A stretch of DNA of 64,000 nucleotides, taken from positions 1 to 64,000 of the IMG/VR virus record IMGVR_UViG_3300031994_000051. One strand, written 5' to 3'. Below, one piece after another: positions 42,971 to 59,689 of this stretch. Made by a program: the position numbers and the translations under genes. Position 1 is the first letter of the stretch; each line of letters starts with the position of its first letter. Origin of the DNA: a virus. Taxonomy: Duplodnaviria > Heunggongvirae > Uroviricota > Caudoviricetes. The notes beneath the pieces are model-generated. The model had not been told where the DNA came from. It searched no databases and worked only from the letters and a program-made list of their open reading frames with translations.

Positions 42971-43129
42971 TACGAGAAGAGACAAGAACACAATGATCTC
43001 ACTCCTGCAAAAGGAAACAGGAATGGGCTGCATGGATCTAAGCAAAAAATCGGCACTTTCCTCGAAGCACTAAAAAGAATATCACACCAACCCTGCGATG
43101 TAGGACTAAGAATGAAAATAGAGTGAGAG

Positions 43130-43995
43130 ATGTATCCACTAAGATAGTCTATAAAAAACAAACCACCATCCCTCCCATAACATGAACATCATAGACCATA
43201 TACTCCAAAACACTAACCTCACCCCATACAAAATATGCGCCAGATACAACATCATCAACGAACCAACAATAGCCATCCCACTGCTATCAGACCTCACACC
43301 CCAAGAAATCTCCAAACTATCCCCCTCACTAACACACCACCACGACAACACCATCTCACAAATCACCACCCAAGAACTCGACAACCTACTACACATCATA
43401 AACATCCCACTGGAATTCCACCCCGTCACCCTGCCACTCACAATCATATCCTCCAAACCACTACCCCTCACCGCCAAACCATCACACGAAGAACCGTTCA
43501 TATACATAATATCCCCATAAACCCACAAAAACACACCGTACAGACACTTTACAACAAAAAACACCCACCAACCCCACCAACCAACCAAAAACCCCTCCAC
43601 AACCACAAAAACGACCTCCATACCAAATAAGATCGATCACCCACTCACAAAAATACATCAAAAAACCAATTTTTCAATAAAAACAAAAACAAAAACCAAA
43701 TTTTTCCAGAATTTTCCAGAATTTTCAAAAAACAATACAGAACAATTAAAACAACCAAAACAAACAGGATCGATCCAAACCATAAAACCCCAACCATTCT
43801 AAAACAAACAAAAACACAACCAACAATAACCACACAAACAACCAACAATATAACAACACCCATATACGAAGTATATGGAATACACAAAATATACACCAAC
43901 CATAACATATCCCAATATACCAATAACAATAATACTATACACATCACCCTATACCCCCATATATATACCCATAACAATATAACCAAACCCAATCA
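43130..43995 (+). other. ~870-nt G-depleted A+C-rich non-coding tract (plus strand almost only A and C, few T)
   Basis: Direct reading. ORF-track products here (His/Pro/Thr-rich on plus, Trp/Gly/Val-rich on minus) are compositional artefacts. Confidence 0.8.
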
Positions 43996-44345
43996 ATCCA
44001 GATAAAACTATTATGGAAATGATATGTACATTGTAAATCAATGACTTAATTTGTTTTCCCACCACATTTCCATACAAAAACACCCCCGTCAGCGCCACAT
44101 CTGGATCGATCCACTATCAACAACACACAAACACCTGTAAAACAATATTATAACCGACATCAAACAAAGGGAAATCAAACACCTGAAAATGGAGCGATCG
44201 ATCGCCCTGAAAATCAACTGGTTATCAATATCCTTGAAAGAAAGTGTTTGACATACAACAAGTTATACAAATGAGGGGGATCGATCTTAAAAACGAAAAT
44301 TTAGCACTTTTTTCTTGGTTAAATACCTGTGTATCAGGATGTTAG

Positions 44346-44430
44346 ATGGCACTTCCGAATACCCTTTTTTAGGGCACTTCCGAATACCCTTTTTTAGGGC
44401 ACTTCCGAATACTACTTCCGAATATTAGTT
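44346..44430. repeat. iteron set A: 2 full + 2 partial copies of GGGCACTTCCGAATACCCTTTTTTA (core ACTTCCGAAT x4)
   Basis: Tandem direct repeats read at 44346-44430. Confidence 0.8.
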
Positions 44431-44473
44431 TTAGATCCCATTGGGATCTCTAATCTGGACGAAGTTATTGATT

Positions 44474-44582
44474 GCACTTCCGTTTACAATTCCGTTTACA
44501 CTTCCGTTTACACTTCCGTTTACAATTCCGTTTACAATTCCGTTTACAATTCCGTTTACAATTCCGTTTACTAATTCAAAGT
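44474..44582. repeat. iteron set B: 9 tandem 12-bp units (A/C)TTCCGTTTACA
   Basis: cacttccgtttaca attccgtttaca cttccgtttaca ... attccgtttac. Followed by the perfect 14-bp palindrome GTTTCATGTGAAAC (44585-44598) and an AT-rich stretch to ~44700. Confidence 0.85.
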
Positions 44583-45013
44583 GTTTCATGTGAAACGTTT
44601 AATATAAAACGTTTATTATCAATGAGTTAGAAAACTTATATGAAAATATAGCATATATTGGTATAATGAATCATATAACATGGCATTACGATCGATCACA
44701 TTATAGGTTCCCAATGGGATCGTAACTGGTGATTTTGGCGTTTTGATCGTTGTCATATATGTCTTTTGGAACTAATATGTTGGTGAATCCCTTTGATGTT
44801 CAGTGTTTTATGATCCAAATGGGATCGATCTTTCGTGTTTTTCTGTTTCTTCACATATCGTTTAGCCGTCAGAATCGTGTGCGGGCAAGGTTCCATGCAT
44901 GGTTGTTCAGGGCGAGGATCCAGTTGGGATCTTTCCATCCACGGTAAGGATATGTTCCATGATGCCAAACATCAATCATGTGAAGGGAAAGATATAAAAA
45001 TTTCTGAAAAATC

Positions 45014-45050
45014 TTTGCACGTATTGGTATTTTCCGTATCTTTGCATCGT
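45014..45050 (+). promoter_or_regulatory. class-II promoter (array)
   Basis: ...tattttccgTATCTTTGCAtcgt. Confidence 0.5.
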
Positions 45051-45061
45051 AATTAAAATCT

Positions 45062-45208
45062 ATGGTTATGAATAAGAACGTATGTTTGTCAAAGGGTTGC
45101 CCTTATTTGGTAAAGAAGACAATTTATTTTCCGTGGTATGAGAAGATGTACATGTGTGCGAAGCGTTTCATGGTTGACGTGAGCAAGGTTGTTGGATGTG
45201 AAAAGTGA
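45062..45208 (+). CDS. array cassette 1: 48-aa Cys-containing peptide
   Basis: First ATG after class-II promoter 45014-45050. Hairpin+T-run 45243-45271. Confidence 0.3.
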   Translation: MVMNKNVCLSKGCPYLVKKTIYFPWYEKMYMCAKRFMVDVSKVVGCEK

Positions 45209-46116
45209 ATGATTATCAATTGTTTATTTTCGATTGCTTATAGTCGTCCTCTGTCGGGGGCGACTTTTTTGCTGATTACCCTCAATGGATGGTGAACTCA
45301 TGGGATGATCGATCGGTTAGATGGATCCCAATGGGATCGTAACCTGTTGACATCGAGGTTGTTGACGAAGAAGTCCTATGACTCTTCTTGTTTTTCTATA
45401 GTGCTGGTTGCGAAATGTTAAAATCATGATTGAAAAATGGCGATAAACCCAATAAAAAGTTTGTCGTTTTCGAGGTGTTTTCTGCATTTATTAATTTTTA
45501 TTAAGATTTATGTAAATGATTGATGTTTAATGATTTACGATGATGCGAGTTCAAAAAGTCCCCTATAGGGGAAAATTGGTTTTTTGGGTGTGGTTTATGG
45601 TTGTTTTTTGAAATGTTAAAAATGGTGTCCGAAACTGTTGATGGAACGAGTGTTCATGTCGGCGTGTTATCGATCCCATTCGGATCCGTGTCTGGGTTGG
45701 ACATCCGACGGGGGTCGGTTTGGTGACGGACGACTACTACTTCGTCCGTCGTGATCTGGTTATGGATCCCGATGGGATCTGTACTGGATCTTCCCAGCAT
45801 CGTTGTCTAGAGAGTGTCTGCATGGGATGCGCAGAGAAATGGCCTGCCTTCTGGGGAAGGATCCGAGTTGGATCCAATACTGTTGTGGATGCATGGGCCT
45901 TCATGTGAGTTTCCTGCTCATGCATGGAATTTCCTGGGTGTCGGATCCGAGTGGGATCGATCCCGTCGAGTCCAGAAAACCTGCGTAATTTTTGGTGGAT
46001 TCTCTTGACCCGTCCAAAAAATTTTCGTGACGCTGTATAGCTGGGTGTCGGATCCGAGTGGGATCAGTATCCTGTGGGACCTTCTTTCTCCCTGTATGAA
46101 AATTTTTCAGATTTTC

Positions 46117-46150
46117 CTTGACACGTGTCATATTTTTCCGTATCTTTGCC
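46117..46150 (+). promoter_or_regulatory. class-II promoter
   Basis: CTTGACAcgtgtcatatttttccgTATCTTTGCc. Confidence 0.6.
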
Positions 46151-46173
46151 GAGTAATTCAAAAACATAGAGTC

Positions 46174-46365
46174 ATGAAGGAAATATTGAAAGTGTTCTTT
46201 ATATTGCTTGTTGCTGTGTTCGTTGTTCCGCTGCTTTGGTTGTTAATCAAAGAGATATGGTGGCTTATAGTCCCGTTGTTCGCTGGGATTGTGATCGGTG
46301 ACATATTTTGGGTTGCCGTGCTCGTCATATCAATAGTTGTGATTATATGGGCTTTGGCGAGCTGA
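46174..46365 (+). CDS. array cassette 2: 63-aa two-TM membrane peptide
   Basis: Promoter 46117-46150. Hydrophobic MKEILKVFFILLVAVFVVPLLWLL... Confidence 0.5.
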   Translation: MKEILKVFFILLVAVFVVPLLWLLIKEIWWLIVPLFAGIVIGDIFWVAVLVISIVVIIWALAS

Positions 46366-46985
46366 AATTTGGTTTCGCTTGTTTCATAATCGTTTAATTG
46401 TTGGCGGTGGCCGATTCCGAGTATCGGGGTCGGCCATTCGTTTTTTGAAGGGCAATCCGACACTCATTCGGGGCAGGCACTGTGGGAGGATCCCAACGGG
46501 ATCGATCCACGCCGTGGACAGACAAAGTCGCGGGTATCACCGATATGCCTCTGATGGCCATCCAGCTGGAATTCGGATGAGGATCCCAACGGGATCGATC
46601 GGGACGTGCCAGCATATTCTACGTGTTCTTGGCAGTGGATGGGTATGCAAGAAATAGGCTTCACTCTTGACTGGAACGATCCGATTCGGATCCTTACTGG
46701 GAAAATCCAGACTCTTGTTCGGGAAGGCGGCTCTGAGGAAGGTGTCCCGTGATCGAATATCGGATCCGATTCGGATCCTTCTCTGTCAAGAAAAAGTGGA
46801 ATCTCCGTACATGGTAGGATTCCAACGTCTGGTTGTTCAGGATGCAGATCCTAACGGGATCGATCGGCTGGGAAACCATTGTTTTGATCGATCCAGATTT
46901 TTTCTGTTGATTGTTTTTGTAAATTATTGTAAAATAATTAGTTACAAAGATTAGAAAAAATAATTGAAACTTTTTTGAAAAAATG

Positions 46986-47020
46986 CTTGCCAATTCGGGA
47001 AAAAGTTGTACCTTTGTAGC
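46986..47020 (+). promoter_or_regulatory. class-II promoter variant (TACCTTTG), embedded in the ~115-bp conserved upstream module 46910-47022
   Basis: cttgccaattcgggaaaaagttgtacctttgtagc. Confidence 0.5.
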
Positions 47021-47084
47021 ACAAACAAAGGGGGAAACCCCGAAGGACAGACAACACAATTATCAACAATCTAAATTCAAAGTT

Positions 47085-47411
47085 ATGGAAAACAATATCG
47101 AAACCATCACAATCGCAATCAACGGAAAGAGTTACAGACTTGTAGAGGTCAGCGCGGAGCAGGCAAATGGTGAGAAAACCATGTGTCTTGTCACGTTGGT
47201 GACACCTGTCGGTGGAATCACCAAAGCATATCCATTGAAGGATATTTGCGTCCCCGAGGGGACATACGACAACGAGGGCGACCGCTTCATCGTGCGCCAC
47301 TGCACGGACGCGGAGTTCGAGGAGTACAAGAAGCACGCAAAGGAAATAGAGGAGCCAGCCATGCTGCTGCAAGTCCTGCTTGACGTTGCATTGTCGGAAA
47401 TCGACTGCTAA
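47085..47411 (+). CDS. array cassette 3: hypothetical protein
   Basis: Promoter 46986-47020; terminator 47437-47478. Confidence 0.55.
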   Translation: MENNIETITIAINGKSYRLVEVSAEQANGEKTMCLVTLVTPVGGITKAYPLKDICVPEGTYDNEGDRFIVRHCTDAEFEEYKKHAKEIEEPAMLLQVLLDVALSEIDC

Positions 47412-47436
47412 ACTGATTTTTGCCATAATTTTTTAG

Positions 47437-47478
47437 GTCGGGGTTGTCCCTTTCGGGGGCGACCCCTTCCTTTTTTTG
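47437..47478 (+). terminator. intrinsic terminator (cassette 3)
   Basis: GC-rich hairpin gtcgggg...cgacccc + T7. Confidence 0.6.
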
Positions 47479-47877
47479 TGTGTGTCGGCAAGCAACTTCC
47501 GTCGGCAGGAATAAAGGCGGATGCTGGGCAGGATCGATCCCGTTGGGATCCCGTCCAGCCGACGAAGACTTCCATGAGGCGGGAGGTTACTTCGGTGAAG
47601 ACACATCGATGGACATCGATGGGACGATCCAACTGGGATCCGTCACGGCGGAGGGTACCACTCTCTATGTATGTCTTCTTTTCTTCGGCATTTCTTCGGC
47701 ATTTGGTGGCGGATGCGGATTGGCCCCAGTAAGGATCCCAATGGGATCTGTGTCGATCGAGAACCATGACTGCATCCTTTCTTAGAATTTTTCTTGGTTT
47801 TTGTTTTTGTAAATTATTGTAAATTAATTAGTTACAAAAATTAGAAAAAATAATTGGAAAATTTCTCGATTTTTTAT

Positions 47878-47911
47878 CCGTTGTATTGATATTTTTCCTA
47901 TCTTTGCAAAG
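47878..47911 (+). promoter_or_regulatory. class-II promoter, within conserved module 47800-47912
   Basis: ccgttgtattgatatttttccTATCTTTGCAaag. Confidence 0.55.
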
Positions 47912-48008
47912 TAATAAAATATTGTTGTAAGATTATCTATAAGAATCTAAACAACTTGTGTTAAAAACAACAAAGACATAGTTATAAACCATCAAAAATT
48001 AAAGAGTT

Positions 48009-48575
48009 ATGGCAAAACAAATTACAAAGTCACAACTTCAAGCAATGCTTGAAAACATTCAAGGCGAAACCGAAATCACAGTCACAGTCAAGGGCGAGGT
48101 CAAGATGAACAAGACAAACAACCCTTTTTACGAGAAGCAGGGTCGCGCTTGGGTAGCGAAGGATAATGTTGAGAAAATACAAACGAGCGTGTACGCTTTC
48201 GGCGGATCGTATGAGGAAAGGGTCAACGAGGCTCTCGTTGCAGACGGAAGCGCAGGCGACTTCAAGGCCGCTTCGTTGCCGTGGGGCGAGTGGATTGTGG
48301 AGGGCAAGACCATTTCCCACAACGGCAAGGTGTACGCCCGTTGCTACATCGTGGAGGGAAAATCGTCTGTTGTTTCAGTGTCGTACTTGGTCAACGGCAA
48401 GGAAGCCACATCGGAGCAGGAGCAGAGCATCAAGGACTTCACCCCAGAGAAGAAGCCGAGCGCGAAGCAGGAGGCCGCAGGGCTTGAAAGTGGAAAGCAG
48501 GTAATCCCCAATAACATCGACTTGGACAAGGTTGTCCGCGTTGAGGTTGACGGGGCGGAGTACGAAATCGCATGA
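48009..48575 (+). CDS. array cassette 4: hypothetical protein
   Basis: Promoter 47878-47911; terminator 48599-48636. Confidence 0.6.
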   Translation: MAKQITKSQLQAMLENIQGETEITVTVKGEVKMNKTNNPFYEKQGRAWVAKDNVEKIQTSVYAFGGSYEERVNEALVADGSAGDFKAASLPWGEWIVEGKTISHNGKVYARCYIVEGKSSVVSVSYLVNGKEATSEQEQSIKDFTPEKKPSAKQEAAGLESGKQVIPNNIDLDKVVRVEVDGAEYEIA

Positions 48576-48598
48576 CGGAATGTCAGTGACAAAATGTC

Positions 48599-48636
48599 AG
48601 GGGCGGCTCACTTGGTGGGTCGCCCTTTCCTTTTCC
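48599..48636 (+). terminator. intrinsic terminator (cassette 4)
   Basis: gggcgg...tcgccc + T-run. Confidence 0.6.
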
Positions 48637-49213
48637 ATTCCAGACAAGACCGACAGAGTTGGTGGAGGATCGCTGAATCGGATCCCATCGGGATCGATCG
48701 CCCTGGTGAATCCAGGGATGTCTGGACATCCCCTGGTATCCCGTCCAGTTCGGATCCCATCGGGATCGATCACTGTCCAGCATTCACCTCTTCCTCCTGC
48801 CGAAAAATTCAGCAAGGTTTTTTTGAAAAGTTTTCCAGATAAATATCCTGATTTCTTCTATGATTTTCCCACGGAAAATCCCATCGGGTTTTTCTTCATT
48901 TTCCCCGTGGGTTTTTTCCGTGGTTTTGGGCGGGGATTCCAGAGACTGGCCTCCCCGCCTTCTTTGTCTGGCAAACCCCCCCAAGAGATGTGATCCGTGA
49001 AGGAAGTCATTGGATCCCAATGGGATCGATCCTGTGGCCATCTCGTGTTCCATCTCGAACACGGCGTATTATGGATCCCGATGGGATCGATTCAGAACAG
49101 GTCCCCTTTCTTATTCCTTTTTCTGTAAGTTTTTGGTAATGTTTTTGTAAATTATTGTGAATCAAATTGTTACAAAGATTATCAAAAATAATTGAAAAAA
49201 ATCTCTCAAAATA

Positions 49214-49250
49214 CTTGACATATTGATTTTTTTCGTATCTTTGCTTCGTC
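49214..49250 (+). promoter_or_regulatory. class-II promoter, within conserved module 49130-49250
   Basis: CTTGACAtattgatttttttcgTATCTTTGCttcgtc. Confidence 0.6.
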
Positions 49251-49300
49251 AAACGACAAAGGGAAACAAACAATTTACAAACAATCTAAAACACAAGACT

Positions 49301-49597
49301 ATGGCAAAGCAACACAAAATTTACTGCGAAGGCTGCTATTGCAGGCCAATGCAGGTAATCGACAAGAACGGCAACACGGAATGGCGTTGGGTGGTGGTCA
49401 CATTTTCTGACGACTGCACCGAGAACGGCGAGGAAGTGGACATCAATGTCAAAGCGAAAACCGAGGAAGGGCTGGTCAATTCATCCGAGAGCGAGGACAA
49501 TGGCGAAACCGAGAAAATCGTCAAGAACTCAATGACGATGAAAGACCTCTACAAGGGAATCCCTGGCCTCGACCCAGACATGGACGAAGACATCTGA
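49301..49597 (+). CDS. array cassette 5: hypothetical protein (N-terminal CxxC, acidic C-terminus)
   Basis: Promoter 49214-49250; terminator 49627-49664. Confidence 0.55.
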   Translation: MAKQHKIYCEGCYCRPMQVIDKNGNTEWRWVVVTFSDDCTENGEEVDINVKAKTEEGLVNSSESEDNGETEKIVKNSMTMKDLYKGIPGLDPDMDEDI

Positions 49598-49626
49598 CGA
49601 CTTGTCTGTCCAGCATGACAAGATGG

Positions 49627-49664
49627 CCGACATCACTTTGGTGGTGTCGGCTTTCCTTTTTCGT
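49627..49664 (+). terminator. intrinsic terminator (cassette 5)
   Basis: gccgacatcac-tttggtg-gtgtcggc + T-run. Confidence 0.65.
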
Positions 49665-50122
49665 CAAGCTGCTCAGGAAAATCGTGATCCTTCGGTCCAG
49701 ATTCTGATCCCATTGGGATCCAAGACGCTGGATACCAGACTCTTGGATGTATGAACTCGGGTGGTCAGGACGACCTTGAGTCTGGAAAGGTTCCCGTGAT
49801 CTGGTATGGATCCGAGTGGGATCGATCGACAGGTCCCGTCGAGACTCTCTTCTTTGACGACAGGGTGGTATTGAGTACATGACGACATTGATCCTGAAGA
49901 TGTACTTTTGATCTGGTATGGATCCAAATGGGATCGATCCTGTCAGAATCTTGTTCTCTCGATGTCGTGCCTGTTAACTATTCGGTTCATTGTGCAAGAT
50001 TACTCTCACGAGATACTCAACCGTCGGTTAATCCGTTGGATCCCAATGGGATCCGTGATGACCGACGAAGTTTTCTTCGTTTTTTATTCCATAATTTTCC
50101 AGAAAAATTTTTTCCGTTTTTT

Positions 50123-50160
50123 CTTGCGTGGTATTCGGAAAATACTTATCTTTGCATCGT
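50123..50160 (+). promoter_or_regulatory. class-II promoter
   Basis: CTTGCGTggtattcggaaaatactTATCTTTGCAtcgt. Confidence 0.6.
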
Positions 50161-50182
50161 CAAACTTAAAATAAGAAAAACT

Positions 50183-50722
50183 ATGGAAAAAAGAAACGGA
50201 AAATTCGTGGGGAAAAAGGACATTCCCTTCGACAACGACAAAATCGCGGACATTCTTCAACTTAAATGCCGCATACTTGAAATGTTCAGGTCGCGCAATG
50301 TTACCGTAAGTTTCGCCCAGAACATTCCGAACGAGAACTACTATACAGCCGCAAGCGACTTCTCTAAGCTGATGAGTACGGAGCTTACAGTCAGGTTCAA
50401 GCCAGTTACGTCAAAGCGTGGGCTTGTTCAGAGGGGGGCTGGTTTGTGCAAGCGCAAGGTGTCGGCGATCGATCCTTGCGTGCATATCATGTTCTACAAC
50501 CAGCAGGGAATCGACGAGGTGACTGGTGATAGCGAGATACAGCCTTGTGTTTTCATAGGGGTTCATGGGTTTCAGGAAAGGGGATACAGGAAACATCATT
50601 GGGCAGACTATTCTCCGAAGCCTTCCTTCGGCTATGGATATGAAATAGAAACTTTGTGGCAAGATGCGGTCAAACCAGCTATGAATCAAATTTGGAACGA
50701 CATCAACTTGCTGATAGAGTGA
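50183..50722 (+). CDS. array cassette 6: hypothetical protein
   Basis: Promoter 50123-50160; terminator 50744-50780. Confidence 0.6.
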   Translation: MEKRNGKFVGKKDIPFDNDKIADILQLKCRILEMFRSRNVTVSFAQNIPNENYYTAASDFSKLMSTELTVRFKPVTSKRGLVQRGAGLCKRKVSAIDPCVHIMFYNQQGIDEVTGDSEIQPCVFIGVHGFQERGYRKHHWADYSPKPSFGYGYEIETLWQDAVKPAMNQIWNDINLLIE

Positions 50723-50743
50723 TTGTTATAGAAGCAATAAGGT

Positions 50744-50780
50744 AACGGCTTGGGCTTGTGTCCGAGCCGTTTCTTTTTTG
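50744..50780 (+). terminator. intrinsic terminator (cassette 6)
   Basis: acggcttgggc...gagccgt + T-run. Confidence 0.6.
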
Positions 50781-51020
50781 TGTGATAGTACGTCTTGACA
50801 CAGATGAGTCAGTGGATGCCCGTCGATCAGATCCCGATGGGATCCGTTACAGTGGGTTCAGGATCACCATGAGTCCGAGGTTGCGATTGACTTGCTTGAT
50901 GGACTTGGACGTCAATCATCTCGATGCCAGCTGGTTAGGATCCCATTGGGATCGTAACTGGGCATTCGCTGCCGATTCGATCGTCGAATTTTTGTCGAAT
51001 TTTTTCTGAAAACAAAAACA

Positions 51021-51056
51021 AAAAAATCCGCACAATTTTTGTACGGATTTTCTTTG
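51021..51056. terminator. bidirectional terminator (cassette 7 end)
   Basis: atccgcacaa-ttttt-gtacggat flanked by A-run and T-run. Confidence 0.5.
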
Positions 51057-51071
51057 GGGTTTTTCTGGAAT

Positions 51072-51257
51072 TTATTTCGGGAAAACCTCGTCAGCGTATG
51101 CTGTGAAAGTGTTGCCGCTTTCTCCTTGCAGGGTGTATTCCGTGCAGAACGCACCATCCTTGATGTCGGTTATCGTGAAAACCTTGTTTGCATCTGGTGT
51201 TTCCCCGTATGCACCGAACCTGACTTGTTTGCCGATTGTGAATTTTTTAATATCCAT
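51072..51257 (-). CDS. array cassette 7b: hypothetical protein (co-transcribed with 7a)
   Basis: 7 nt after 7a. Bidirectional terminator 51021-51056. Confidence 0.45.
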   Translation of the reverse strand: MDIKKFTIGKQVRFGAYGETPDANKVFTITDIKDGAFCTEYTLQGESGNTFTAYADEVFPK

Positions 51258-51263
51258 TGATTT

Positions 51264-51506
51264 TCATATTTTTGTCTTGTCAACCGAATAATATTGTTTC
51301 CCGTCTATATATTCAAGCTCACACACGAACTTGAATTTTCCCCTTCTGTAAAGGTGTGCAGTGAAAGAACCGACGAATACGCTGCGTCCAGCAACATCAT
51401 CAATGTTCCTTCCGCTTTCGCATATTATGGAACTCCGTTCTTTGTTGTAGCAGAATGTCCCCAAGGAAAGGGCGATTGCGTAATCATGTGTGTTTGTTAT
51501 TTCCAT
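51264..51506 (-). CDS. array cassette 7a: hypothetical protein
   Basis: Minus-strand class-II promoter 51521-51560. Start MEITNTHDY. Confidence 0.5.
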   Translation of the reverse strand: MEITNTHDYAIALSLGTFCYNKERSSIICESGRNIDDVAGRSVFVGSFTAHLYRRGKFKFVCELEYIDGKQYYSVDKTKI

Positions 51507-51520
51507 TATTCCGTTTGTTT

Positions 51521-51560
51521 GATGATGCAAAGATAAGCATTTTTCCTATACCACGCAAGG
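51521..51560 (-). promoter_or_regulatory. class-II promoter (minus strand)
   Basis: rc: ccttgcgtggtataggaaaaatgcTTATCTTTGCAtcatc. Confidence 0.6.
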
Positions 51561-51905
51561 AAAATCGTAAATTTTTTCATGGAGGTCCAACACCCGTCGA
51601 TCGTTTCGGCCTCAGTATGGATCCCATTTGGATCCTATACGATCCAGAGCATCTCCTCTCATATCCTCGTTGATCGATCAACTGTGATGAACTCGAAGAA
51701 ATGATCCTTCCGTGATCGATCAGATCCCATTGGGATCATATCATATCACGGCGTCTTCTTCAGACTCAAGGTCATCATCATACCAAGTGATGTCCACATC
51801 CAAGAGTCTGGTATCCAGGCATTTGGATCCCATTGGGATCGTATCGGGGCCTTCACGAGTTCACTGCTGTCGTTGTATGCGTTGTCATCTGGTTAATGTA
51901 AAAAG

Positions 51906-51940
51906 AAAAGCCGATCCAAAATTGGATCGGCTTTCATTTC
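51906..51940. terminator. bidirectional terminator (cassette 8 end)
   Basis: aaaagccgatccaaaattggatcggctttc. Confidence 0.65.
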
Positions 51941-51958
51941 GTGTGGGAATGATTGGGT

Positions 51959-52192
51959 TTAGTCCACTTTCTTGAATATAACTGACTTGCCGTCGGTTCT
52001 TGATGTTTTAGAGCAAAGCCCCACGACCTGCTTGATGTCTGGCCTGTTCATGCATTGGTGTCTGCACCAGCATTCCCTGCAAGTTCCAGTTAGGTCTTCT
52101 ACGACTTCAAGCGTGACAATCGTATCTGGCATATAGGGGTTATGTACGGTTTTCCTGAATCTCTCCCCTATCGGTCTTGTCATGTTGTCCAT
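51959..52192 (-). CDS. array cassette 8b: Cys-rich hypothetical protein
   Basis: 4 nt after 8a. CxxCxCxxxC. Terminator 51906-51940. Confidence 0.45.
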   Translation of the reverse strand: MDNMTRPIGERFRKTVHNPYMPDTIVTLEVVEDLTGTCRECWCRHQCMNRPDIKQVVGLCSKTSRTDGKSVIFKKVD

Positions 52193-52195
52193 TAT

Positions 52196-52519
52196 CTATT
52201 CCTCCTTGATTTTCACATTAAGAATTGTATTCCTGTGTTGCTCCTTTATTCTTGGCCTTGATTCCCAGTCAAGAATCTGGTACAACAATACGAATGTGCT
52301 TATTGATAGGCAGTTTTCTCCTTCATGGATTGGTTCAACGCGGTTCCAGCTCATGCAGTGCCATTTCATCTGCCTTGCCTTTTCAACATTTGCTTTTTCG
52401 ATCGATTGGTTTATGTCGTCAAGATGTTGTCTTGTCATGTTGACGGTAATTGTTTGCCTATATACGGTTCCGTCTTCACCGTATTTTGTCATGTAGTTTA
52501 CAGTTGTTTTCATTTTCAT
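52196..52519 (-). CDS. array cassette 8a: hypothetical protein
   Basis: Minus-strand promoter 52528-52566. Start MKMKTTVNY. Confidence 0.5.
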   Translation of the reverse strand: MKMKTTVNYMTKYGEDGTVYRQTITVNMTRQHLDDINQSIEKANVEKARQMKWHCMSWNRVEPIHEGENCLSISTFVLLYQILDWESRPRIKEQHRNTILNVKIKEE

Positions 52520-52527
52520 ATCGTTTT

Positions 52528-52566
52528 GATGATGCAAAGATAAGTAAAATACCAATACGTGTCAAG
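52528..52566 (-). promoter_or_regulatory. class-II promoter (minus strand)
   Basis: rc: CTTGACAcgtattggtattttacTTATCTTTGCAtcatc. Confidence 0.6.
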
Positions 52567-53110
52567 CTTTTTCCCCAATTTTTTCAGAAAATTTTTTTCG
52601 GAAATTATCTGGAAACTTTCCAGAGATTCTGGTCGGGATCTTGCGGCGGGATCGATCCCAATCGGATCCTTTACAGTTAATCTCGATGTTGATGAGGATT
52701 ATGTCTGAAGTTCGTCGGGGTGCCCTTGGCTGGATCGATCCAGTTGGGATCCAAGCACGCCGAACGATCTGTCCTGTCGATGCCCTTCACCGATCGATCA
52801 ACCCTGATCCGAACAGAGAGGATCCTGACTCAGGTCATCACGGATCCGATCCCATTGGGATCCAATGGATTACATGACGGCTGAGCATCTCGTGTGAGTA
52901 TCATGGCAAGAAGTCGTCTGGAAGTTTTCCGTGGCCTGATCGATCCCGTTGGGATCAATACTGGACGAAGTAGGATCTTTGCTCATCGATGTAATGGTTG
53001 TCCAACAGACTCTGAAGTCTCCTCATCTGTATGGGATCCTATTGGGATCCATACTGGCCATTCTGCGCGGATGTCTTGTACGCAATACTGGATGCGGCGG
53101 CAAAAAAACG

Positions 53111-53149
53111 AAAAGCCGATCGACCATTGTATTGATCGATCGGCTTCCC
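53111..53149. terminator. bidirectional terminator (cassette 9 end)
   Basis: aaaagccgatcgaccattgtattgatcgatcggcttcc. Confidence 0.65.
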
Positions 53150-53170
53150 TTATGATTGGAGCTTGAACAC

Positions 53171-53713
53171 TCACCAAAGGTCTTCAAGTTTCAGTCGCTT
53201 GAAGTTCCTTTCGTTCTCGATTGCCGTTTCCCAGTCTGGTTCCGATTTGCGGTAGACCAACGCGCTTTCGCCTTTCTTTGAAAGAAGCCGTATCTCCATG
53301 ATGTTTGTCCCGTCGTGGTGAAGCCCGTGTACATAGACGCGGCCATTGTCATAGACCACTTTGTAGTCTTGATAGTCGCTCGAAGAATTGAGGGCTTCCT
53401 TGATTGCTTCCGAGAGGGTCTCAAATGTTTTCTCGACATATCCTTTGTGGTGTCCGTCCCAAAGTCCCAAGTCGAAGGTGATTACATAGTGGCGGATTCC
53501 TTTGTCGGCAGTGGAATAAGAAAGGTTTGTGAAGAAGTCCTCATAGTCGATATATTCCTCGTCGCTTACCCAATCATAGTATTCTTGCGAGTCTTCCTTC
53601 GCTGGTTCGATTTCGTTTGCTTTGCACCATTCTACATACATTGCATAGTTGTAGAATTCCGTGCAATAGTTTGTTCCGATAAGGGTTCTTTCCTTTTTGT
53701 CTTGTTTGCTCAT
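53171..53713 (-). CDS. array cassette 9: hypothetical protein
   Basis: Promoter 53742-53778 (minus); terminator 53111-53149. Confidence 0.6.
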   Translation of the reverse strand: MSKQDKKERTLIGTNYCTEFYNYAMYVEWCKANEIEPAKEDSQEYYDWVSDEEYIDYEDFFTNLSYSTADKGIRHYVITFDLGLWDGHHKGYVEKTFETLSEAIKEALNSSSDYQDYKVVYDNGRVYVHGLHHDGTNIMEIRLLSKKGESALVYRKSEPDWETAIENERNFKRLKLEDLW

Positions 53714-53741
53714 GATTCAGATGTTTTTTATTGTTTGAATT

Positions 53742-53778
53742 ATGATGCAAAGATACGACTTTTTTCTTAATTGTCAAG
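53742..53778 (-). promoter_or_regulatory. class-II promoter (minus strand)
   Basis: rc: CTTGACAattaagaaaaaagtcgTATCTTTGCAtcat. Confidence 0.6.
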
Positions 53779-54130
53779 CGAAAAACGAAAAAATTTATCT
53801 TTATTCTTTATTTTTTTCTGGAACGATCGATCCTGTTGTCCGAGATGGCGATCTGTCTTGGATCCCAATGGGATCCGTTACTGTGGAAGTTGTATTCTTG
53901 GGGGCCTTTCTTCAGGATGTCCTGATAAGCGGGGACTAACTCATATCTGGAAATTACCTGGCGAGAGATCCCAGTGGGATCTATCGGATGGGAGATTCGG
54001 CTGTTGGCCTTGCCGACTGCTGTTGATCATCCTGATGTTCTGGATGGTGATCCTGAACGGATCCAAATGGGATCGATCAGCGGGCCGAAGGTTCCTTTTA
54101 CTTCAGGTTTGTGTCGGGACGAAAAAAGAC

Positions 54131-54164
54131 AAAGCCCGCTGGTATTGTCTCCAACGGGCTTTCC
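54131..54164 (-). terminator. terminator (cassette 10 end)
   Basis: aaagcccgctgg...ccaacgggcttt. Confidence 0.55.
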
Positions 54165-54189
54165 ACGAATATGAATAATGAAACAAGAG

Positions 54190-54708
54190 TTATGGCTTGA
54201 TGTCTTTCAGTATGATTGATGCTTTTATCCAATATACGGCTGGTTCCGTCTTGACGGAGATTTCCAACCCGTTGTCGTTCTTTTTGTAAGGGAACTTAGA
54301 CTTCGACATGATCGTTCCGATGAATTTGTCAGCTTTTTCGTTGGCATAGGACTTTGCTCCTTCCTTGCTCGCGAAGATGTCACTGGACACCGTATCACCG
54401 AATGGGGTGTGTTCGATTACTGTAGCCATGTATATGGGTTGAGGGTACTGTTCGCTTTCCGACAAATGTTCATACAGTTTGTTTTGTTCGATCGCATTCT
54501 CTATCATGGACTTGATTTCCTCTATGACGGAATCGCTGTCCTCGTCGTCTGGATCGTATGAAGGTGCTCCATGTAGCTCACCCCAATATCTTCCGTCCTC
54601 TCCATGGACGTCATAGAACGATTGATCCGTGTTGCAGTCATAGCATTGGGTCAGTAATAAGCTTTCCCCGTTTTCCGTGATGATTCTGATTCTGATTCTG
54701 TTTTCCAT
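54190..54708 (-). CDS. array cassette 10: hypothetical protein
   Basis: Promoter 54734-54771 (minus); terminator 54131-54164. Confidence 0.6.
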   Translation of the reverse strand: MENRIRIRIITENGESLLLTQCYDCNTDQSFYDVHGEDGRYWGELHGAPSYDPDDEDSDSVIEEIKSMIENAIEQNKLYEHLSESEQYPQPIYMATVIEHTPFGDTVSSDIFASKEGAKSYANEKADKFIGTIMSKSKFPYKKNDNGLEISVKTEPAVYWIKASIILKDIKP

Positions 54709-54733
54709 AGTATGTTTGTTTTTGAATTTGTTT

Positions 54734-54771
54734 GACGCTGCAAATATACGACTTTTTCCCGAATTGTCAAG
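54734..54771 (-). promoter_or_regulatory. class-II promoter (minus strand)
   Basis: rc: CTTGACAattcgggaaaaagtcgTATATTTGCAgcgtc. Confidence 0.6.
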
Positions 54772-55065
54772 TATTTTCCTTGAAATTTTTCCGAAAAATT
54801 TTTCTCAGGATTTTACCCGTATTCTTTCTAGGATTCCGATCAGAAAAAATCCAGATGGGATTCGACAGGTTGCCCACGGGTTTTGGGCAGGGAAAGATCC
54901 CGTTGGGATCTATCTGGGTGTGGACGTCGTGGGATGTCTTTTGTAAATTGCGTCCGACTCAGAATCATCACATCGTTTCTGTGGAATTGATCCTAATAGG
55001 ATCTGGAAAGGGGACGACGATCTGTGTTCCTCTGTTTCTTCTGGATCCAGCTTTTTTGCGGACAA

Positions 55066-55103
55066 CAAAAAAGGGGTTGCCATGTTATCGGCAACCCCTT
55101 CTC
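55066..55103 (-). terminator. terminator (cassette 11 end)
   Basis: rc: gaaggggttgccgataacatggcaacccc + T-run. Confidence 0.6.
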
Positions 55104-55129
55104 GTGATTAGGGCACGGCACGGGATTTC

Positions 55130-55678
55130 TTATTTGTTTTTCTTGTAGTATTTCGTTTCCACTACTTTGATAAGGACATGATCGGTGGAATAGCATCCGT
55201 CCATCCAGATATTGTAGCAGTCTGGTGTGTCGGTGAAGTCGTCCTTGCATGACTGGTTGTTTGGATCGATCCAAAGGTTTCCAGCTTCCGATAATTCAAT
55301 ATATTCGTCGCGTTTCAGTTTGAGTGCGGCGCGGGCGTGTTCCCTGTCAGAGAAAACACCAAGCGTTTCCACGGTGTCTTCGTCACCGTTGCAGCATACC
55401 GAGTGAAGCACCGCATAGCATGGTGTCCCCTTGCCGATGACGTTCTGTTTTTGGGCATTTGCTATCTGATCGCTTATTTCAAGGATTTTATCGATTGAAA
55501 GATCGTCGAAGTCGATCGGTTTCCCGTTGTATTCATATACTGGTGTAAGCCAGTCAGGTCTGAGGTAAACATATTCCCTTCTTCCTATTTTCAGTTTGCC
55601 TGTGATTTGTTTAGCCACATTGTCGATGGCGACGGCTTTGAGCTGTTGTGCCTGTGTCTTGATTTCGTAGTTCTTCAT
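55130..55678 (-). CDS. array cassette 11: hypothetical protein
   Basis: Promoter 55701-55736 (minus); terminator 55066-55103. Confidence 0.6.
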   Translation of the reverse strand: MKNYEIKTQAQQLKAVAIDNVAKQITGKLKIGRREYVYLRPDWLTPVYEYNGKPIDFDDLSIDKILEISDQIANAQKQNVIGKGTPCYAVLHSVCCNGDEDTVETLGVFSDREHARAALKLKRDEYIELSEAGNLWIDPNNQSCKDDFTDTPDCYNIWMDGCYSTDHVLIKVVETKYYKKNK

Positions 55679-55700
55679 TGTAGTCTTGTTTTTGAATTAT

Positions 55701-55736
55701 GGTGCAAAAATACGAAAAATATCGATACGTGTCAAG
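55701..55736 (-). promoter_or_regulatory. class-II promoter (minus strand)
   Basis: rc: CTTGACAcgtatcgatatttttcgTATTTTTGCAcc. Confidence 0.55.
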
Positions 55737-55925
55737 TAAAATCGAAATTATTTTTTCTCGATCGATCGCTGTCCACGGCAGTGGAGCCAGCTGTAATCCT
55801 GATTTGGATCCCACTGGGATCGAAACTGGGCCGAGTGGGTCGACGCGGGCGCGTGCGCGAGTGCGCGTGCGTTTCTTTTACTATTATAATGGGATAAAAA
55901 ATAAAATAGAATTTTTCGTTTTTTA

Positions 55926-55962
55926 CTTGACAATTCAGATTTTTTTCGTATCTTTGCGGCGT
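55926..55962 (+). promoter_or_regulatory. class-II promoter
   Basis: CTTGACAattcagatttttttcgTATCTTTGCggcgt. Confidence 0.6.
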
Positions 55963-56001
55963 GAATCAAACAGAAGTATAACCTATCAAAAACTTACAAC
56001 T

Positions 56002-56466
56002 ATGGGAAGAAGAAAATACAACGAGATTGAGAAGGCGCAGTCCAAGATCAACAAAGGGATCGACGATCTCTATGCAGCTGTATGCGATCGTGTCAAGGAT
56101 ATGCAGGAAGCTAATGGAAAAGGTTATGTCGACACGCAGGACAAAACCAAGGACACAATCTATTTCCTTGCATACGACAGCGAGGCTGTAAACGATATGC
56201 ACGAAGGCACTGTGTGCGGTGTCCGTGCGGTGCGTAACGGAAGCGGTCTTGATCTTCAATTTGTGGGATCGATCGTCAATGTGTATTTTGATCAAGAAAG
56301 CTTCGACGACTGTAACCGCAACTATGGAGATAGCAACGATATTGTAGACTACAACGGGTTTGACGGTGAATGGGAAGAGTCTTGGCAATATGTCAAGAAC
56401 CACGATCTCATCCTCTATGTGCCTACATTGCTCTCCATCGCGGAGTCGATAGACCAGTACATCTGA
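56002..56466 (+). CDS. array cassette 12: hypothetical protein
   Basis: Promoter 55926-55962. Confidence 0.55.
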   Translation: MGRRKYNEIEKAQSKINKGIDDLYAAVCDRVKDMQEANGKGYVDTQDKTKDTIYFLAYDSEAVNDMHEGTVCGVRAVRNGSGLDLQFVGSIVNVYFDQESFDDCNRNYGDSNDIVDYNGFDGEWEESWQYVKNHDLILYVPTLLSIAESIDQYI

Positions 56467-56669
56467 CAAACATTCATTTTTTCATAACTGCTTTTTCATG
56501 TGCGGCGATCGATCATCTTCGGTCTCCGCACTGTTTTATGCCAAGAACCAGAACAAGGAGTTCATCCTGTTGGTGACCCAGTATGGATCCCAATGGGATC
56601 CTATTTAGAGCCGCCAGATCCCGTCGGGTTTTATTCAAATAAAAAATAGAAATAAAAAATTGATTTTTT

Positions 56670-56707
56670 CTTGGATCGTATCGATATTTTCCGTATCTTT
56701 GCAGCGT
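56670..56707 (+). promoter_or_regulatory. class-II promoter
   Basis: cttggatcgtatcgatattttccgTATCTTTGCAgcgt. Confidence 0.6.
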
Positions 56708-56751
56708 AAAATAAAACGGAAAAATAAACCAAAAAAGAAAGGAAAAAAACA

Positions 56752-57168
56752 ATGAGCAGCGGACATGAATTGCCTTACAGAGGCGAGAGCTTCAAGATAG
56801 TTGGTTGCAAGAATGCAATGGAGAAAAACACACGATCGATGTTTCCAGATCCTAAAGACAATATCGGTATATGGGTCGATTATTTCAGGATCGTCTATGA
56901 CAGGGGTGAACGGATTGAACAAGGATTCGGTTCGGATTCGTTTGTCAGTTACGACAACGGGTATATCGGTATAGAGTGTGCCGATCGTTTCCAGACAGTG
57001 AAGGAAGCGGAGGACTTTATCAAGGTAAAGAAAAGTGTGGTAAACAACTGGTATCGTGGATTCGGCATCAGGAAGACCGAGTACGATAAATCAACGGGAA
57101 CTTACACGCATGAGATTATCAGGCCATGTGAGGCAACCAATAGCGTCACGGTCGATCACCTTAATTGA
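56752..57168 (+). CDS. array cassette 13: hypothetical protein
   Basis: Promoter 56670-56707. Confidence 0.55.
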   Translation: MSSGHELPYRGESFKIVGCKNAMEKNTRSMFPDPKDNIGIWVDYFRIVYDRGERIEQGFGSDSFVSYDNGYIGIECADRFQTVKEAEDFIKVKKSVVNNWYRGFGIRKTEYDKSTGTYTHEIIRPCEATNSVTVDHLN

Positions 57169-57178
57169 AAAAAAAAGA

Positions 57179-57212
57179 CTTGACATTGATATTTTGCTTA
57201 TCTTTGCATCGT
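57179..57212 (+). promoter_or_regulatory. class-II promoter
   Basis: CTTGACAttgatattttgctTATCTTTGCAtcgt. Confidence 0.6.
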
Positions 57213-57232
57213 AATTCAAAAACAACAGAGCT

Positions 57233-57481
57233 ATGGAAACTACAAACAGAAAATGGTATCGCTCCGACTTCACGGCAAAGGGGTTGTTTGACAACACGGA
57301 TATTGATTCGGAATACTACACGGCAGAGAGTGACGCGGAGGCGATCGATCACGGTAAGGAACTCGCGGCAAACGGGGTTGACTTCGCCGACATCGGTCAC
57401 ATCGACATCAAGCTGACCTATATCGCGGAGGTTGACGACACGCAGGAAACTTGGCCAGAGAAAAGAACTGTTTATTATTGA
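57233..57481 (+). CDS. array cassette 14: hypothetical protein
   Basis: Promoter 57179-57212. Confidence 0.5.
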   Translation: METTNRKWYRSDFTAKGLFDNTDIDSEYYTAESDAEAIDHGKELAANGVDFADIGHIDIKLTYIAEVDDTQETWPEKRTVYY

Positions 57482-57693
57482 AAAACAAAACCAGAATTTT
57501 TCAGAGAAAAAAGATCGGGGGAACATCCAAAAGTTCTCCCGATTTTTTTATTTGGGAAAATCCAGAGAAATTCCCACAGGGAATACATGGCGATCGATCC
57601 TGAACTGGATCCCACTGGGATCTATCCAACTTTCTCATCTTCAGAGTCTTGGATGCCATGTTTCATGTGGAACAAAAATTTTACAGAAAAAGC

Positions 57694-57730
57694 TTGACAC
57701 GTATCGATATTTTTCTTATCTTTGCACCGT
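57694..57730 (+). promoter_or_regulatory. class-II promoter
   Basis: CTTGACAcgtatcgatatttttctTATCTTTGCAccgt. Confidence 0.6.
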
Positions 57731-57771
57731 CAATTCAAAAACAGAGTATTAACCTATAAAAGAAAAGACCT

Positions 57772-58305: not shown

Positions 58306-58338
58306 GTTTTGCTCATACTCATATCATATTGTTTTTTT

Positions 58339-58374
58339 CCGATCGATCACACCCAGTGGTCGATCGGTTTTTTT
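58339..58374 (+). terminator. intrinsic terminator (cassette 15)
   Basis: ccgatcgatcacacccagtggtcgatcgg + T7. Confidence 0.6.
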
Positions 58375-58664: not shown

Positions 58665-58701
58665 CTTGCCAATTCAGATAATTTTCGTATATTTGCATCG
58701 T
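58665..58701 (+). promoter_or_regulatory. class-II promoter (TATATTTG variant), within conserved module 58594-58701
   Basis: cttgccaattcagataattttcgTATATTTGCAtcgt. Confidence 0.6.
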
Positions 58702-59655: not shown

Positions 59656-59689
59656 AAAATAAAACAGGAAAACTAACCTATAAAATAAT

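What the first reader, a model, noticed from the sequence alone, without database searches (positions are those of the whole stretch)
44340..44700. Origin-like architecture: two iteron families with a shared TTCCG core, a 14-bp palindrome and an AT-rich segment
Set A has two full and two partial copies of a 25-bp unit. Set B has nine copies of a 12-bp unit. They are followed by GTTTCATGTGAAAC and then ~100 bp of AT-rich DNA (aatataaaacgtttattatcaatgag...tatattggtataatgaatcatataacatgg). This is the classic iteron plus DNA-unwinding-element layout of plasmid and phage origins. It sits in the only large non-coding block, next to the A+C tract. It could alternatively be a packaging (pac/cos) recognition site, given that terL is nearby on a circular map.
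Basis: partly seen in the sequence, partly recalled or inferred. Interest (0 to 1): 0.6.

Follow-up and report, generated by a model that had tools for sequence, protein, structure and literature searches.

The report
Conserved iteron block in jumbo phage
A 350-bp non-coding block of short direct repeats, a palindrome and an AT-rich stretch is real and is kept in precise register across a family of uncultivated ~170-220-kb gut/rumen phages; it is a protein-assembly site that most likely acts as a replication origin, though its function is still unproven.

Summary
Set A (25-bp unit, 44348-44425) and Set B (12-bp unit, 44475-44577) are the two best tandem repeats in the window. Both share a CTTCCG core on one strand only. 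An inverted repeat and the least stable DNA of the 43-46 kb region follow them.

The window is part of a ~173-kb phage with a T4-like terminase; its nearest cultured or named relatives by TerL are the Prevotella Lak megaphages.

All eight related phages whose contigs cover the region carry the same block. In six loci, including the window, left cores start 88/63/38 bp from the centre of a central palindrome. In all nine loci the right cores lie within about 2 bp of a +36+12n lattice. The palindrome sequence itself differs between lineages, and always matches that lineage's own intergenic palindrome family.

The block marks the head of a >=30-kb arm of small genes with consensus host-type promoters. 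It is also a mosaic boundary between near-identical and diverged DNA.

Best reading: a two-factor nucleoprotein site, most likely a replication origin (about 0.4). An organiser of the early arm is the main rival. A pac/cos site is unlikely, because terL lies 43 kb away and is of the T4 headful type. I found no initiator and no DnaA boxes, and I have no replication data.

The parts
42971..44150 (+). A+C-rich, G-poor tract to the left of the block (context, not a constant part of the module)
   Evidence: Over 42971-44340 the composition is A 43%, C 29%, G 9%; GC skew is -0.65. From 43100 to about 43600 the tract is 98-100% identical to relative L177, then 88-100% on to ~44050. Distant relatives have an A/T-rich tract instead, and L170 has only a short spacer there.
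43861..43877 (.). Palindrome CATATACGAAGTATATG inside the tract
   Evidence: Read. ATATACGnAGTATAT also occurs in the tracts of L027, L021 and L029.
44348..44425 (+). Set A: four CTTCCGAATA cores starting at 44352, 44377, 44402 and 44415 (25, 25 and 13 bp apart)
   Evidence: Homologous cores lie at the same distances (-88/-63/-38 from the palindrome centre) in L177, L174, L029, L021 and L025.
44434..44448 (.). Central palindrome GATCCCATTGGGATC, the first member of the right-arm palindrome family
   Evidence: 55 exact GATCCN5GGATC against 0.08 expected, and 54 of them lie at or beyond 44434. In each relative this slot holds that lineage's own palindrome.
44475..44577 (+). Set B: eight (C/A)TTCCGTTTAC cores at exact 12-bp steps (44477-44561)
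   Evidence: The lag-12 autocorrelation z-score is 12.7 here and 4.1-6.3 in five relatives. Right cores lie on the +36+12n lattice in all nine loci.
44583..44596 (.). Inverted repeat GTTTCA-tg-TGAAAC
   Evidence: L177 has GTTTCAcaTGAAAC and L027 has GTTTCACGTGGAAC at the same position.
44578..44677 (.). AT-rich, low-stability segment (candidate DNA-unwinding element)
   Evidence: 79% A+T and the local stability minimum of 43-46 kb. It is 86% identical to L177 at 44600-44650, compared with 30-66% in the intergenic DNA from 44650 to 45000.
44617..44629 (+). Match to the E. coli IHF consensus WATCAANNNNTTR (TATCAATGAGTTA)
   Evidence: 4 of the window's 12 matches lie in 44036-45226. The match is kept in L177 and L170. 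This is a consensus match only; the host factor is unknown.
44640..44667 (+). Sigma-70-like extended -10 promoter match (ATGAAA-16-TGgTATAAT)
   Evidence: It is a consensus match only; the phage's other promoters are of the Bacteroidota TAnnTTTG type.
44706..44931 (.). Three further family palindromes at 105-bp steps (starting 44707 with one mismatch, 44812 and 44917)
45013..45044 (+). First consensus promoter of the right arm (TATCTTTG -7 box at 45037)
   Evidence: roughly 25 near-identical promoters of the form cTTGACAcGTATtGATATTTTTCG-TATCTTTGCA between 45 and 64 kb.
45068..45208 (+). First gene of the arm: a 46-aa Cys-rich protein (MNKNVCLSKGCPY...), followed by a terminator-like hairpin at 45242-45265
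   Evidence: Homologues occur in eight loci, including the window.

Best explanation
The block is a cis-acting nucleoprotein assembly site of a ~173-kb virulent-looking phage. The host is probably Prevotella or another Bacteroidota (inferred from promoter type and TerL matches). The block most likely serves as a replication origin or as its organising centre.

Shown by the sequence comparisons:
- One CTTCC(G/A) core, always in the same orientation, occupies a fixed lattice on both sides of a palindrome.
- There are three or four sites on a 25/12.5-bp lattice on the left and 8-11 positions on a 12-bp lattice on the right.
- The core and the geometry are conserved across lineages. The central palindrome changes in step with the ~55 palindromes of that lineage's early-gene arm.

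Inferred mechanism:
- Two factors bind. One has stable specificity (a conserved phage protein or a host protein) and polymerises head-to-tail at one protomer per ~12 bp.
- The other is a fast-evolving dimeric protein that binds the palindrome.
- A 12-bp step is longer than the 10.5-bp helical repeat. Such a filament would therefore wrap the DNA in a right-handed path, as phage phi29 p6 does.
- That wrapping would destabilise the adjacent, unusually well conserved inverted repeat and AT-rich segment (44578-44677), where unwinding and priming would start.
For: The repeats are real and exceptional within the window.

All eight related loci that cover the region carry the block, with the neighbouring protein at 45-95% identity. 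The Set A plus palindrome region aligns at 65% mean identity. The 12-bp periodicity over 100-130 bp is significant in every locus tested. Core positions relative to the palindrome centre are conserved.

The central palindrome co-varies with each lineage's arm palindromes. No other palindrome in the window has a flanking core lattice.

The AT-rich segment is the local stability minimum. It is more conserved than the surrounding intergenic DNA.

Four matches to the IHF consensus cluster in 1.2 kb around the block.

The block is a sharp mosaic boundary between 98-100% and 30-88% identity.

Against: - No initiator, helicase loader or Rep-like protein was found next to the block or among the window ORFs scanned.
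- There are no DnaA boxes within about 2.4 kb of the block.
- Cumulative GC skew keeps rising on both sides; only the A+C tract dents it.
- About 43 kb of + strand genes lie to the left, and a leftward fork would meet them head-on.
- Spacings of 25 and 12 bp are not the ~22 bp of classical iteron origins.
- The AT-rich segment is only about the 11th least stable in the window.
- The T4 oriE repeats have never been tied to origin activity, and in T4 they lie inside the gene 5 coding repeats.
- No coverage or nascent-strand data were available.
Confidence: 0.4

Rival explanations
1. The block is an organiser or control region for the early-gene arm. It would be a nucleation site from which a regulator controls or insulates the ~25+ consensus early promoters, for example by shutting off early transcription or by blocking read-through from the left arm. 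In that case it has no role in replication. The regulator would act together with the protein that binds the palindromes.
For: The block always sits at the head of the arm and holds the first family palindrome. Its orientation follows the right arm even where the left-flank genes are inverted, as in L012. Palindromes lie between gene ends and promoters throughout the arm. phi29 p6 complexes also drive the early-to-late switch.
Against: About 12-13 unidirectional sites plus a conserved AT-rich segment is more elaborate than known promoter control regions. The first promoter is ~450 bp away, beyond three more palindromes. None of the other 54 palindromes needs a core lattice.
Confidence: 0.25
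2. The block is a DNA packaging or genome-end signal: a pac/cos site, the boundary of a terminal repeat, or a T5-like injection-stop region next to pre-early genes.
For: It is a repeat-rich untranslated region beside an early 'host-takeover-like' arm, which resembles the T5 iss region (bioRxiv 10.1101/866236). Three independent contigs end in or beside Set A (L016, L025, L172).
Against: TerL is 43 kb away. Its best matches are Lak megaphages, PTm1, PAU and T4-type gp17 terminases, a type that packages by the headful without a fixed site (that link is inference from established knowledge). Two assemblies of the same genome are linearised at different places. The contig breaks are explained by the sharp divergence boundary. 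There are no DnaA boxes of the kind found in T5 iss.
Confidence: 0.08
3. The block is a centromere-like partition site. It would be a split array of direct repeats bound by a centromere-binding protein, as in tubC/TubR or parC/ParR.
For: There are two blocks of short direct repeats with related cores. tubC of prophage c-st is a split centromere with two iteron types (PMC6009700). A 12-bp repeat unit is reported for pBtoxis tubC (my recollection, not checked here).
Against: tubC and parC lie directly upstream of their own operon. No TubZ, TubR, ParM, ParA or ParB hit appears among the window ORFs scanned. No relative of the neighbouring marker protein was found in 185,579 species-representative genomes, so a prophage or plasmid state is not in evidence.
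Confidence: 0.07
4. The block is a recombination or module-exchange hotspot with no other role, or simply slippage-prone non-functional repeats.
For: Identity to L177 drops from ~100% to 72-80% across the block and is lower beyond it. Copy number differs by 49 bp between two assemblies. The window's Set B looks recently homogenised compared with L177.
Against: Neutral repeats would not keep their core, orientation, lattice phase and array length across lineages whose neighbouring proteins are only 45-58% identical.
Confidence: 0.1

Closest known systems
Iteron-type origins (phage lambda ori; plasmids R6K gamma, pSC101, RK2 oriV)
   Same: Unidirectional direct repeats presumed to bind a protein, an adjacent AT-rich low-stability segment, an IHF-consensus match, and a position in non-coding DNA.
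   Different: Spacings are 25 and 12 bp rather than ~22 bp. There are two arrays with one core flanking a palindrome. No initiator gene is adjacent or overlapping, and there are no DnaA boxes. Origin activity is untested.
[quoted passage not shown]
   Same: A 12-nt period, conservation in syntenic regions of relatives, a large phage with a T4-type terminase, and proximity to host-type (early) promoters.
   Different: The T4 repeats lie inside gene 5 coding repeats (period 24/48). Here the arrays are non-coding. There is no sequence similarity. The role of the T4 repeats is itself unproven.
phi29 p6 nucleoprotein complex at the replication origins (PMC10899789)
   Same: A 12-bp monomer and 24-bp dimer register, a multimeric array of about 100+ bp, and a proposed link between replication activation and early-gene control.
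   Different: p6 reads bendability rather than a specific core, and it acts at the ends of a linear, protein-primed genome. No p6 homologue was identified here.
tubC/TubR split centromere of prophage c-st (PMC6009700) and parC/ParR
   Same: Split arrays of short direct repeats with two iteron flavours that form a wrapped segrosome.
   Different: Those sites lie directly upstream of their own operon. No partition genes were found here, and no plasmid or prophage state was seen.
T5 injection-stop (iss) region (bioRxiv 10.1101/866236)
   Same: A large untranslated region with repeats, inverted repeats and palindromes, conserved among relatives and located next to early genes.
   Different: T5 iss lies in a fixed terminal repeat and carries eight DnaA boxes. 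Here there are no DnaA boxes, and the terminase is of the T4 headful type.

Membership tests
Iteron-type theta origin | Three or more direct repeats of one orientation that bind an initiator | tested here: inconclusive
   12 cores in one orientation. Binding was not testable.
Iteron-type theta origin | Iterons of ~17-22 bp spaced about two helical turns (~22 bp) apart | tested here: not met
   Spacings are 25 bp (Set A) and 12 bp (Set B) in the window and in relatives.
Iteron-type theta origin | Adjacent AT-rich DNA-unwinding element | tested here: met
   44578-44677 is 79% A+T and is the local stability minimum. It is conserved against L177.
Iteron-type theta origin | Initiator (Rep/O-type) gene adjacent to or overlapping the iterons | tested here: not met
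   There were no Pfam or PHROG hits of that kind for the flanking genes or for 50 window ORFs. About 100 kb of the genome was not seen.
Iteron-type theta origin | DnaA boxes | tested here: not met
   TTATCCACA (<=1 mismatch): 16 hits against 22 expected, and none between 39446 and 47060.
Iteron-type theta origin | Replication initiates here | not testable with these tools
   No read-level data were available. Cumulative GC skew shows no reversal.
T4 oriE-type repeat cluster | [quoted passage not shown] | tested here: met
   The feature is as defined in PMC3016281.
T4 oriE-type repeat cluster | Homology to the T4 oriE region, its gene 5 context, and repEA/repEB | tested here: not met
   The T4 repeats lie in the gene 5 coding sequence with a different unit. 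Here the arrays are non-coding. The repE homologues are too small to search for.
pac/cos packaging site | Location in or next to the terminase genes | tested here: not met
   TerL is at window 32-1540, 43 kb away.
pac/cos packaging site | Terminase of a site-specific (cos/pac/DTR) clade | tested here: not met
   The best TerL matches are Lak megaphages, PTm1, PAU and T4-like gp17. The headful assignment is an inference.
pac/cos packaging site | Defined DNA ends or read-start pile-up at the site | not testable with these tools
   Only assembled contigs were available. Contig breaks at Set A are explained by the divergence boundary.
Type II/III partition centromere (parC, tubC) | Arrays of short direct repeats, often split into blocks | tested here: met
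   Sets A and B.
Type II/III partition centromere (parC, tubC) | Site lies immediately upstream of the centromere-binding protein and motor operon | tested here: not met
   The flanking genes have no such domains. There were no Par or Tub hits in the window.
T5-like injection-stop region | Ordered set of DnaA boxes within a terminal repeat | tested here: not met
   No DnaA boxes. There is no evidence of fixed ends.

The most novel reading that the evidence does not exclude
The block may be a new kind of two-factor 'master site'. A factor of stable specificity would polymerise on a 12-bp CTTCCG lattice that is built around one copy of a lineage-specific palindrome. The fast-evolving binder of that palindrome also marks every intergenic region of a >=30-kb early-gene arm. 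One site would then couple replication initiation to arm-wide control of early genes (and perhaps to exchange of the arm). This would be a phi29 p6-like logic, but sequence-specific and in a T4-like jumbo phage.
Probability: 0.15. Interest if true: 0.7.

Novelty: new variant of a known kind. Interest (0 to 1): 0.45.

Why it matters
Replication origins and cis-control sites of uncultivated gut and rumen jumbo phages are essentially unknown. This block gives a precisely defined, conserved and testable candidate, with exact core positions, lattice and AT-rich target. Natural variants are already available: five palindrome specificities, and arrays that range from degenerate to homogenised.

The co-variation of the palindrome across lineages offers a direct computational route to its binding protein. 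If the origin reading holds, it would supply a marker for coverage-based growth estimates of these phages in metagenomes. It would also be an example of iteron arrays working on a 12-bp lattice without an adjacent initiator gene.

Tried and rejected
- blastn of 43.0-46.5 kb against 50,697 phage records found no match.
- Exact iteron patterns in IMG/VR gave nothing for Set B and three single hits for Set A that I took to be chance and did not inspect further.
- A looser three-core pattern returned 120 unrelated loci. None encodes a relative of the phage's own genes (one locus matched only the DnaJ ORF), and none has Set A nearby. That scan was wasted.
- A CGGAA cluster in L007 lies inside an ORF on the opposite strand and shows none of the block's architecture; I judged it chance.
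- G-rich 26-bp repeats in L032 are unrelated.
- Structured RNA is not supported. There is no Rfam family (the only hit has E=0.2, below threshold), and the RNA folding z-scores are -1.3 and -0.5.
- DnaA boxes are absent.
- A coding explanation is rejected. The 25-bp period is not a multiple of 3, only 50-52-aa ORFs cross Set B, and the relatives carry degenerate units.
- It has no relative in the cultured-phage collection or in species-representative genomes.
- T4 oriE was examined as a model. Its '12-nt iterons' sit in gene 5 coding repeats, so it is only a loose analogue.
- Walking the rest of the 173-kb genome for a full skew analysis would have needed more look-ups than were allowed.

Full report
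**Context.** The window is part of a large phage genome. It encodes a terminase large subunit that is truncated at the window start (32-1540). It also encodes a ClpX-like AAA protein, a clamp-loader-like AAA protein, a 5'-3' exonuclease, Hsp70, DnaJ, an SPFH protein and an amidase. There are no tRNAs and no nucleotide match to any deposited phage. The same genome exists as a 173,474-bp ENA contig. That contig is linearised at window position 41454 and has 0 mismatches over 17 kb. By TerL, the nearest named relatives are the Prevotella Lak megaphages (31% identity), then Tenacibaculum PTm1, Sphingomonas PAU and T4-type gp17 terminases. Promoters are of the Bacteroidota TAnnTTTG type.

**The observation.** Tandem Repeats Finder gives its two best scores in the window to a 25-bp unit x2.6 (44348-44412, 100% match) and a 12-bp unit x8.2 (44478-44577, 96% match). 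Each unit carries CTTCCG, always on the + strand. There are four cores in Set A (44352, 44377, 44402, 44415) and eight in Set B (44477 to 44561 in steps of 12). CTTCCGNNTAC with up to one mismatch occurs 22 times against 7.4 expected, and 12 of those hits are in the block. Next come the inverted repeat GTTTCA-tg-TGAAAC (44583-44596) and a 79% A+T segment (44578-44677). That segment is the least stable 100 bp between 43 and 46 kb and ranks in the top ~1% of the window.

Set B has eight cores, not nine. The 14-mer is a 6+2+6 inverted repeat. terL is 43 kb away, not nearby. An otherwise identical assembly lacks one 25-mer and two 12-mers.

**Surroundings.** The central palindrome is the first of a family. 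There are 55 exact GATCCN5GGATC in the window against 0.08 expected, and 54 of them lie at or beyond 44434. From 45 kb to at least 10 kb beyond the window end, the genome is an 'arm' of small genes with no Pfam matches. Most of these genes have a near-identical promoter, cTTGACAcGTATtGATATTTTTCG-TATCTTTGCA. Each gene is separated from the next by one to six palindromes at steps of about 70-110 bp. To the left of the block lies a ~1.2-kb A+C-rich, G-poor tract.

**Relatives.** I used the 188-aa protein at 48009-48575 as a marker. With it I recovered related loci from IMG/VR, JGI and ENA metagenomes and from the protein collection. Every locus that reaches far enough upstream carries the block:
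- L177/L178: 95% identity of the marker protein
- L170-L172: 85%
- L174: 74%
- L029, L021, L025, L012: 53-57%
- L027: 45%

The sequences are shown. Set A plus the palindrome aligns at 65% mean identity across five lineages. In the Set B region, autocorrelation peaks only at lags 12 and 24, with z = 4.1-6.3 in relatives and 12.7 in the window. The periodic stretch spans 100-130 bp, or 8-11 units, everywhere. The window's array is therefore a homogenised version of an array that is degenerate but equally long in the relatives. In the 95% relative, strong and weak units alternate, giving a 24-bp super-period.

**Geometry.** I measured positions from the centre of the central palindrome.
- Left cores start at -88/89, -63/64 and -38/39 (plus -26) in the window, L177, L174, L029, L021 and L025. 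L027 is shifted by one 13-bp step.
- Right cores fall on +36+12n, within 2 bp, in all nine loci.
- The palindrome itself differs between lineages: GATCCCAnTGGGATC, GATCCGAnTCGGATC, TAACCCCAnnGGGGTTA, TAATCTCAnTGAGATTA and TAATGTCAnTGACATTA.
- In each case it matches the palindromes scattered through that lineage's own arm.
- None of the other 54 palindromes in the window has flanking conserved sequence or a core lattice.

This pattern points to two binding activities. One has conserved specificity for CTTCCG. The other changes specificity between lineages and binds the palindrome.

**Boundary behaviour.** Against the 95% relative, identity is 98-100% through most of the A+C tract up to ~44050. 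It is 72-80% in the block, 86% over the inverted repeat and AT-rich segment, and 30-66% in the intergenic DNA beyond. Coding DNA is 97-98% identical on the left and 80-88% on the right. The block therefore sits at a mosaic junction. This also explains why three independent contigs end in or beside Set A. The A+C tract is not a constant part of the module. It is A/T-rich in distant relatives and nearly absent in L170.

**Interpretation.** Conservation of the core, orientation, lattice and array length rules out neutral slippage repeats. Structured RNA is not supported. An origin is the best single reading, for several reasons.
- Unidirectional repeat arrays abut an inverted repeat and a conserved, low-stability AT-rich segment.
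- Four matches to the IHF consensus cluster within 1.2 kb, where 0.15 would be expected from the window-wide rate.
- phi29 p6 shows how a filament with a 12-bp step wraps DNA right-handedly and activates initiation (PMC10899789).

The weaknesses are real. I found no initiator gene and no DnaA boxes. The skew does not reverse. The spacings are not classical. The role of the T4 repeats is unproven, and in T4 they lie in coding repeats. There is no replication data. I put the origin reading at about 0.4.

**Rivals.**
- An organiser or control site for the early arm is the main rival (0.25).
- A bare recombination hotspot comes next (0.1).
- A packaging or terminus signal (0.08) is disfavoured by the terminase type and its distance.
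- A partition centromere (0.07) is disfavoured by the absence of partition genes and of any prophage or plasmid relatives.

**Novelty and verdict.** Iteron-plus-AT-rich layouts are a known kind. This one differs in having a single core on two lattices (25 and 12 bp) locked in register around a lineage-specific palindrome, with no adjacent initiator, at the head of a promoter- and palindrome-studded early arm. It occurs in an uncultivated phage family with no cultured relatives of these genes. I rate it a new variant of a known kind, with moderate interest.

Noticed in passing
window 44434-64000 (and L166 to +10 kb): A family of 55 exact GATCCN5GGATC palindromes (0.08 expected) is confined to the right arm, with one to six per intergenic region at steps of ~70-110 bp. 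Related phages carry different palindromes in the same positions (TAATCTCAnTGAGATTA, TAATGTCAnTGACATTA, GATTTCAnTGAAATC, TAACCCCAnnGGGGTTA). All keep a CAnTG-like centre.
   Followed up: partly
window 45013-63150, both strands: Roughly 25 near-identical Bacteroidota-type promoters (cTTGACAcGTATtGATATTTTTCG-TATCTTTGCAtCGT) each drive one small gene with no Pfam match. The layout looks like an early 'host-takeover' module.
   Followed up: partly
whole window, densest beyond 44 kb: GATC occurs 592 times (about 250 expected from length) and GATCGATC 68 times. GATCGATC also punctuates the A-rich tracts of relatives L027, L029 and L021. Some distant relatives (L005-L007) have no GATC at all.
   Followed up: no
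window 42971-44150: A 1.2-kb A+C-rich tract has G at 0-8% per 100 bp. It is 98-100% identical over most of its length in a relative whose flanking coding DNA is 97-98% identical. It is A/T-rich in distant relatives and nearly absent in L170. It would give a C-rich, G-poor transcript (rut-like) if read through from the left arm.
   Followed up: partly
window 43861-43877; L027 ~598; L021 ~3711; L029 ~4398: The palindrome ATATACGnAGTATAT is conserved inside the A-rich tract of four lineages.
   Followed up: no
window 44348-44577 vs L015 2894-3075: Two assemblies of the same genome (0 mismatches over 17 kb) differ by 49 bp: one 25-mer and two 12-mers. This is either real copy-number polymorphism or assembly collapse.
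   Followed up: yes
window ~44050-44300 vs L177: There is a sharp mosaic boundary. DNA to the left is 97-100% identical to L177 and DNA to the right only 30-88%. This suggests that whole arms are exchanged at or near the block.
   Followed up: partly
L174 3433-5097: A relative carries a 492-aa TnpB/Cas12f-like ORF (OrfB_IS605 and Cas12f1-like_TNB domains). Overlapping its 3' end and running on downstream are four ~36-nt repeats at 60-66-bp steps. This is a CRISPR-like array about 1.3 kb to the left of that phage's block.
   Followed up: partly
[not shown]
   Followed up: yes
window 45068-45208 and seven related loci: A 46-52-aa Cys-rich protein, M(N/D)KNVC(I/L/R)(S/A)KGCP(Y/F)...YMC...C, is conserved in the arm. 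It is the first gene after the block in the window, L177 and L174. It may bind zinc.
   Followed up: partly
window 1603-2739, 8433-10340, 14628-15668: The phage encodes its own chaperone set: a ClpX/ClpB-like AAA protein, a full-length Hsp70 (704 bits to Pfam HSP70) and a three-domain DnaJ.
   Followed up: no
L169 6427-6558 (T4 79426-79557): The '12-nt iterons' of T4 oriE show up as a 24/48-bp periodic repeat inside the gene 5 coding sequence. They may partly reflect a protein repeat.
   Followed up: partly
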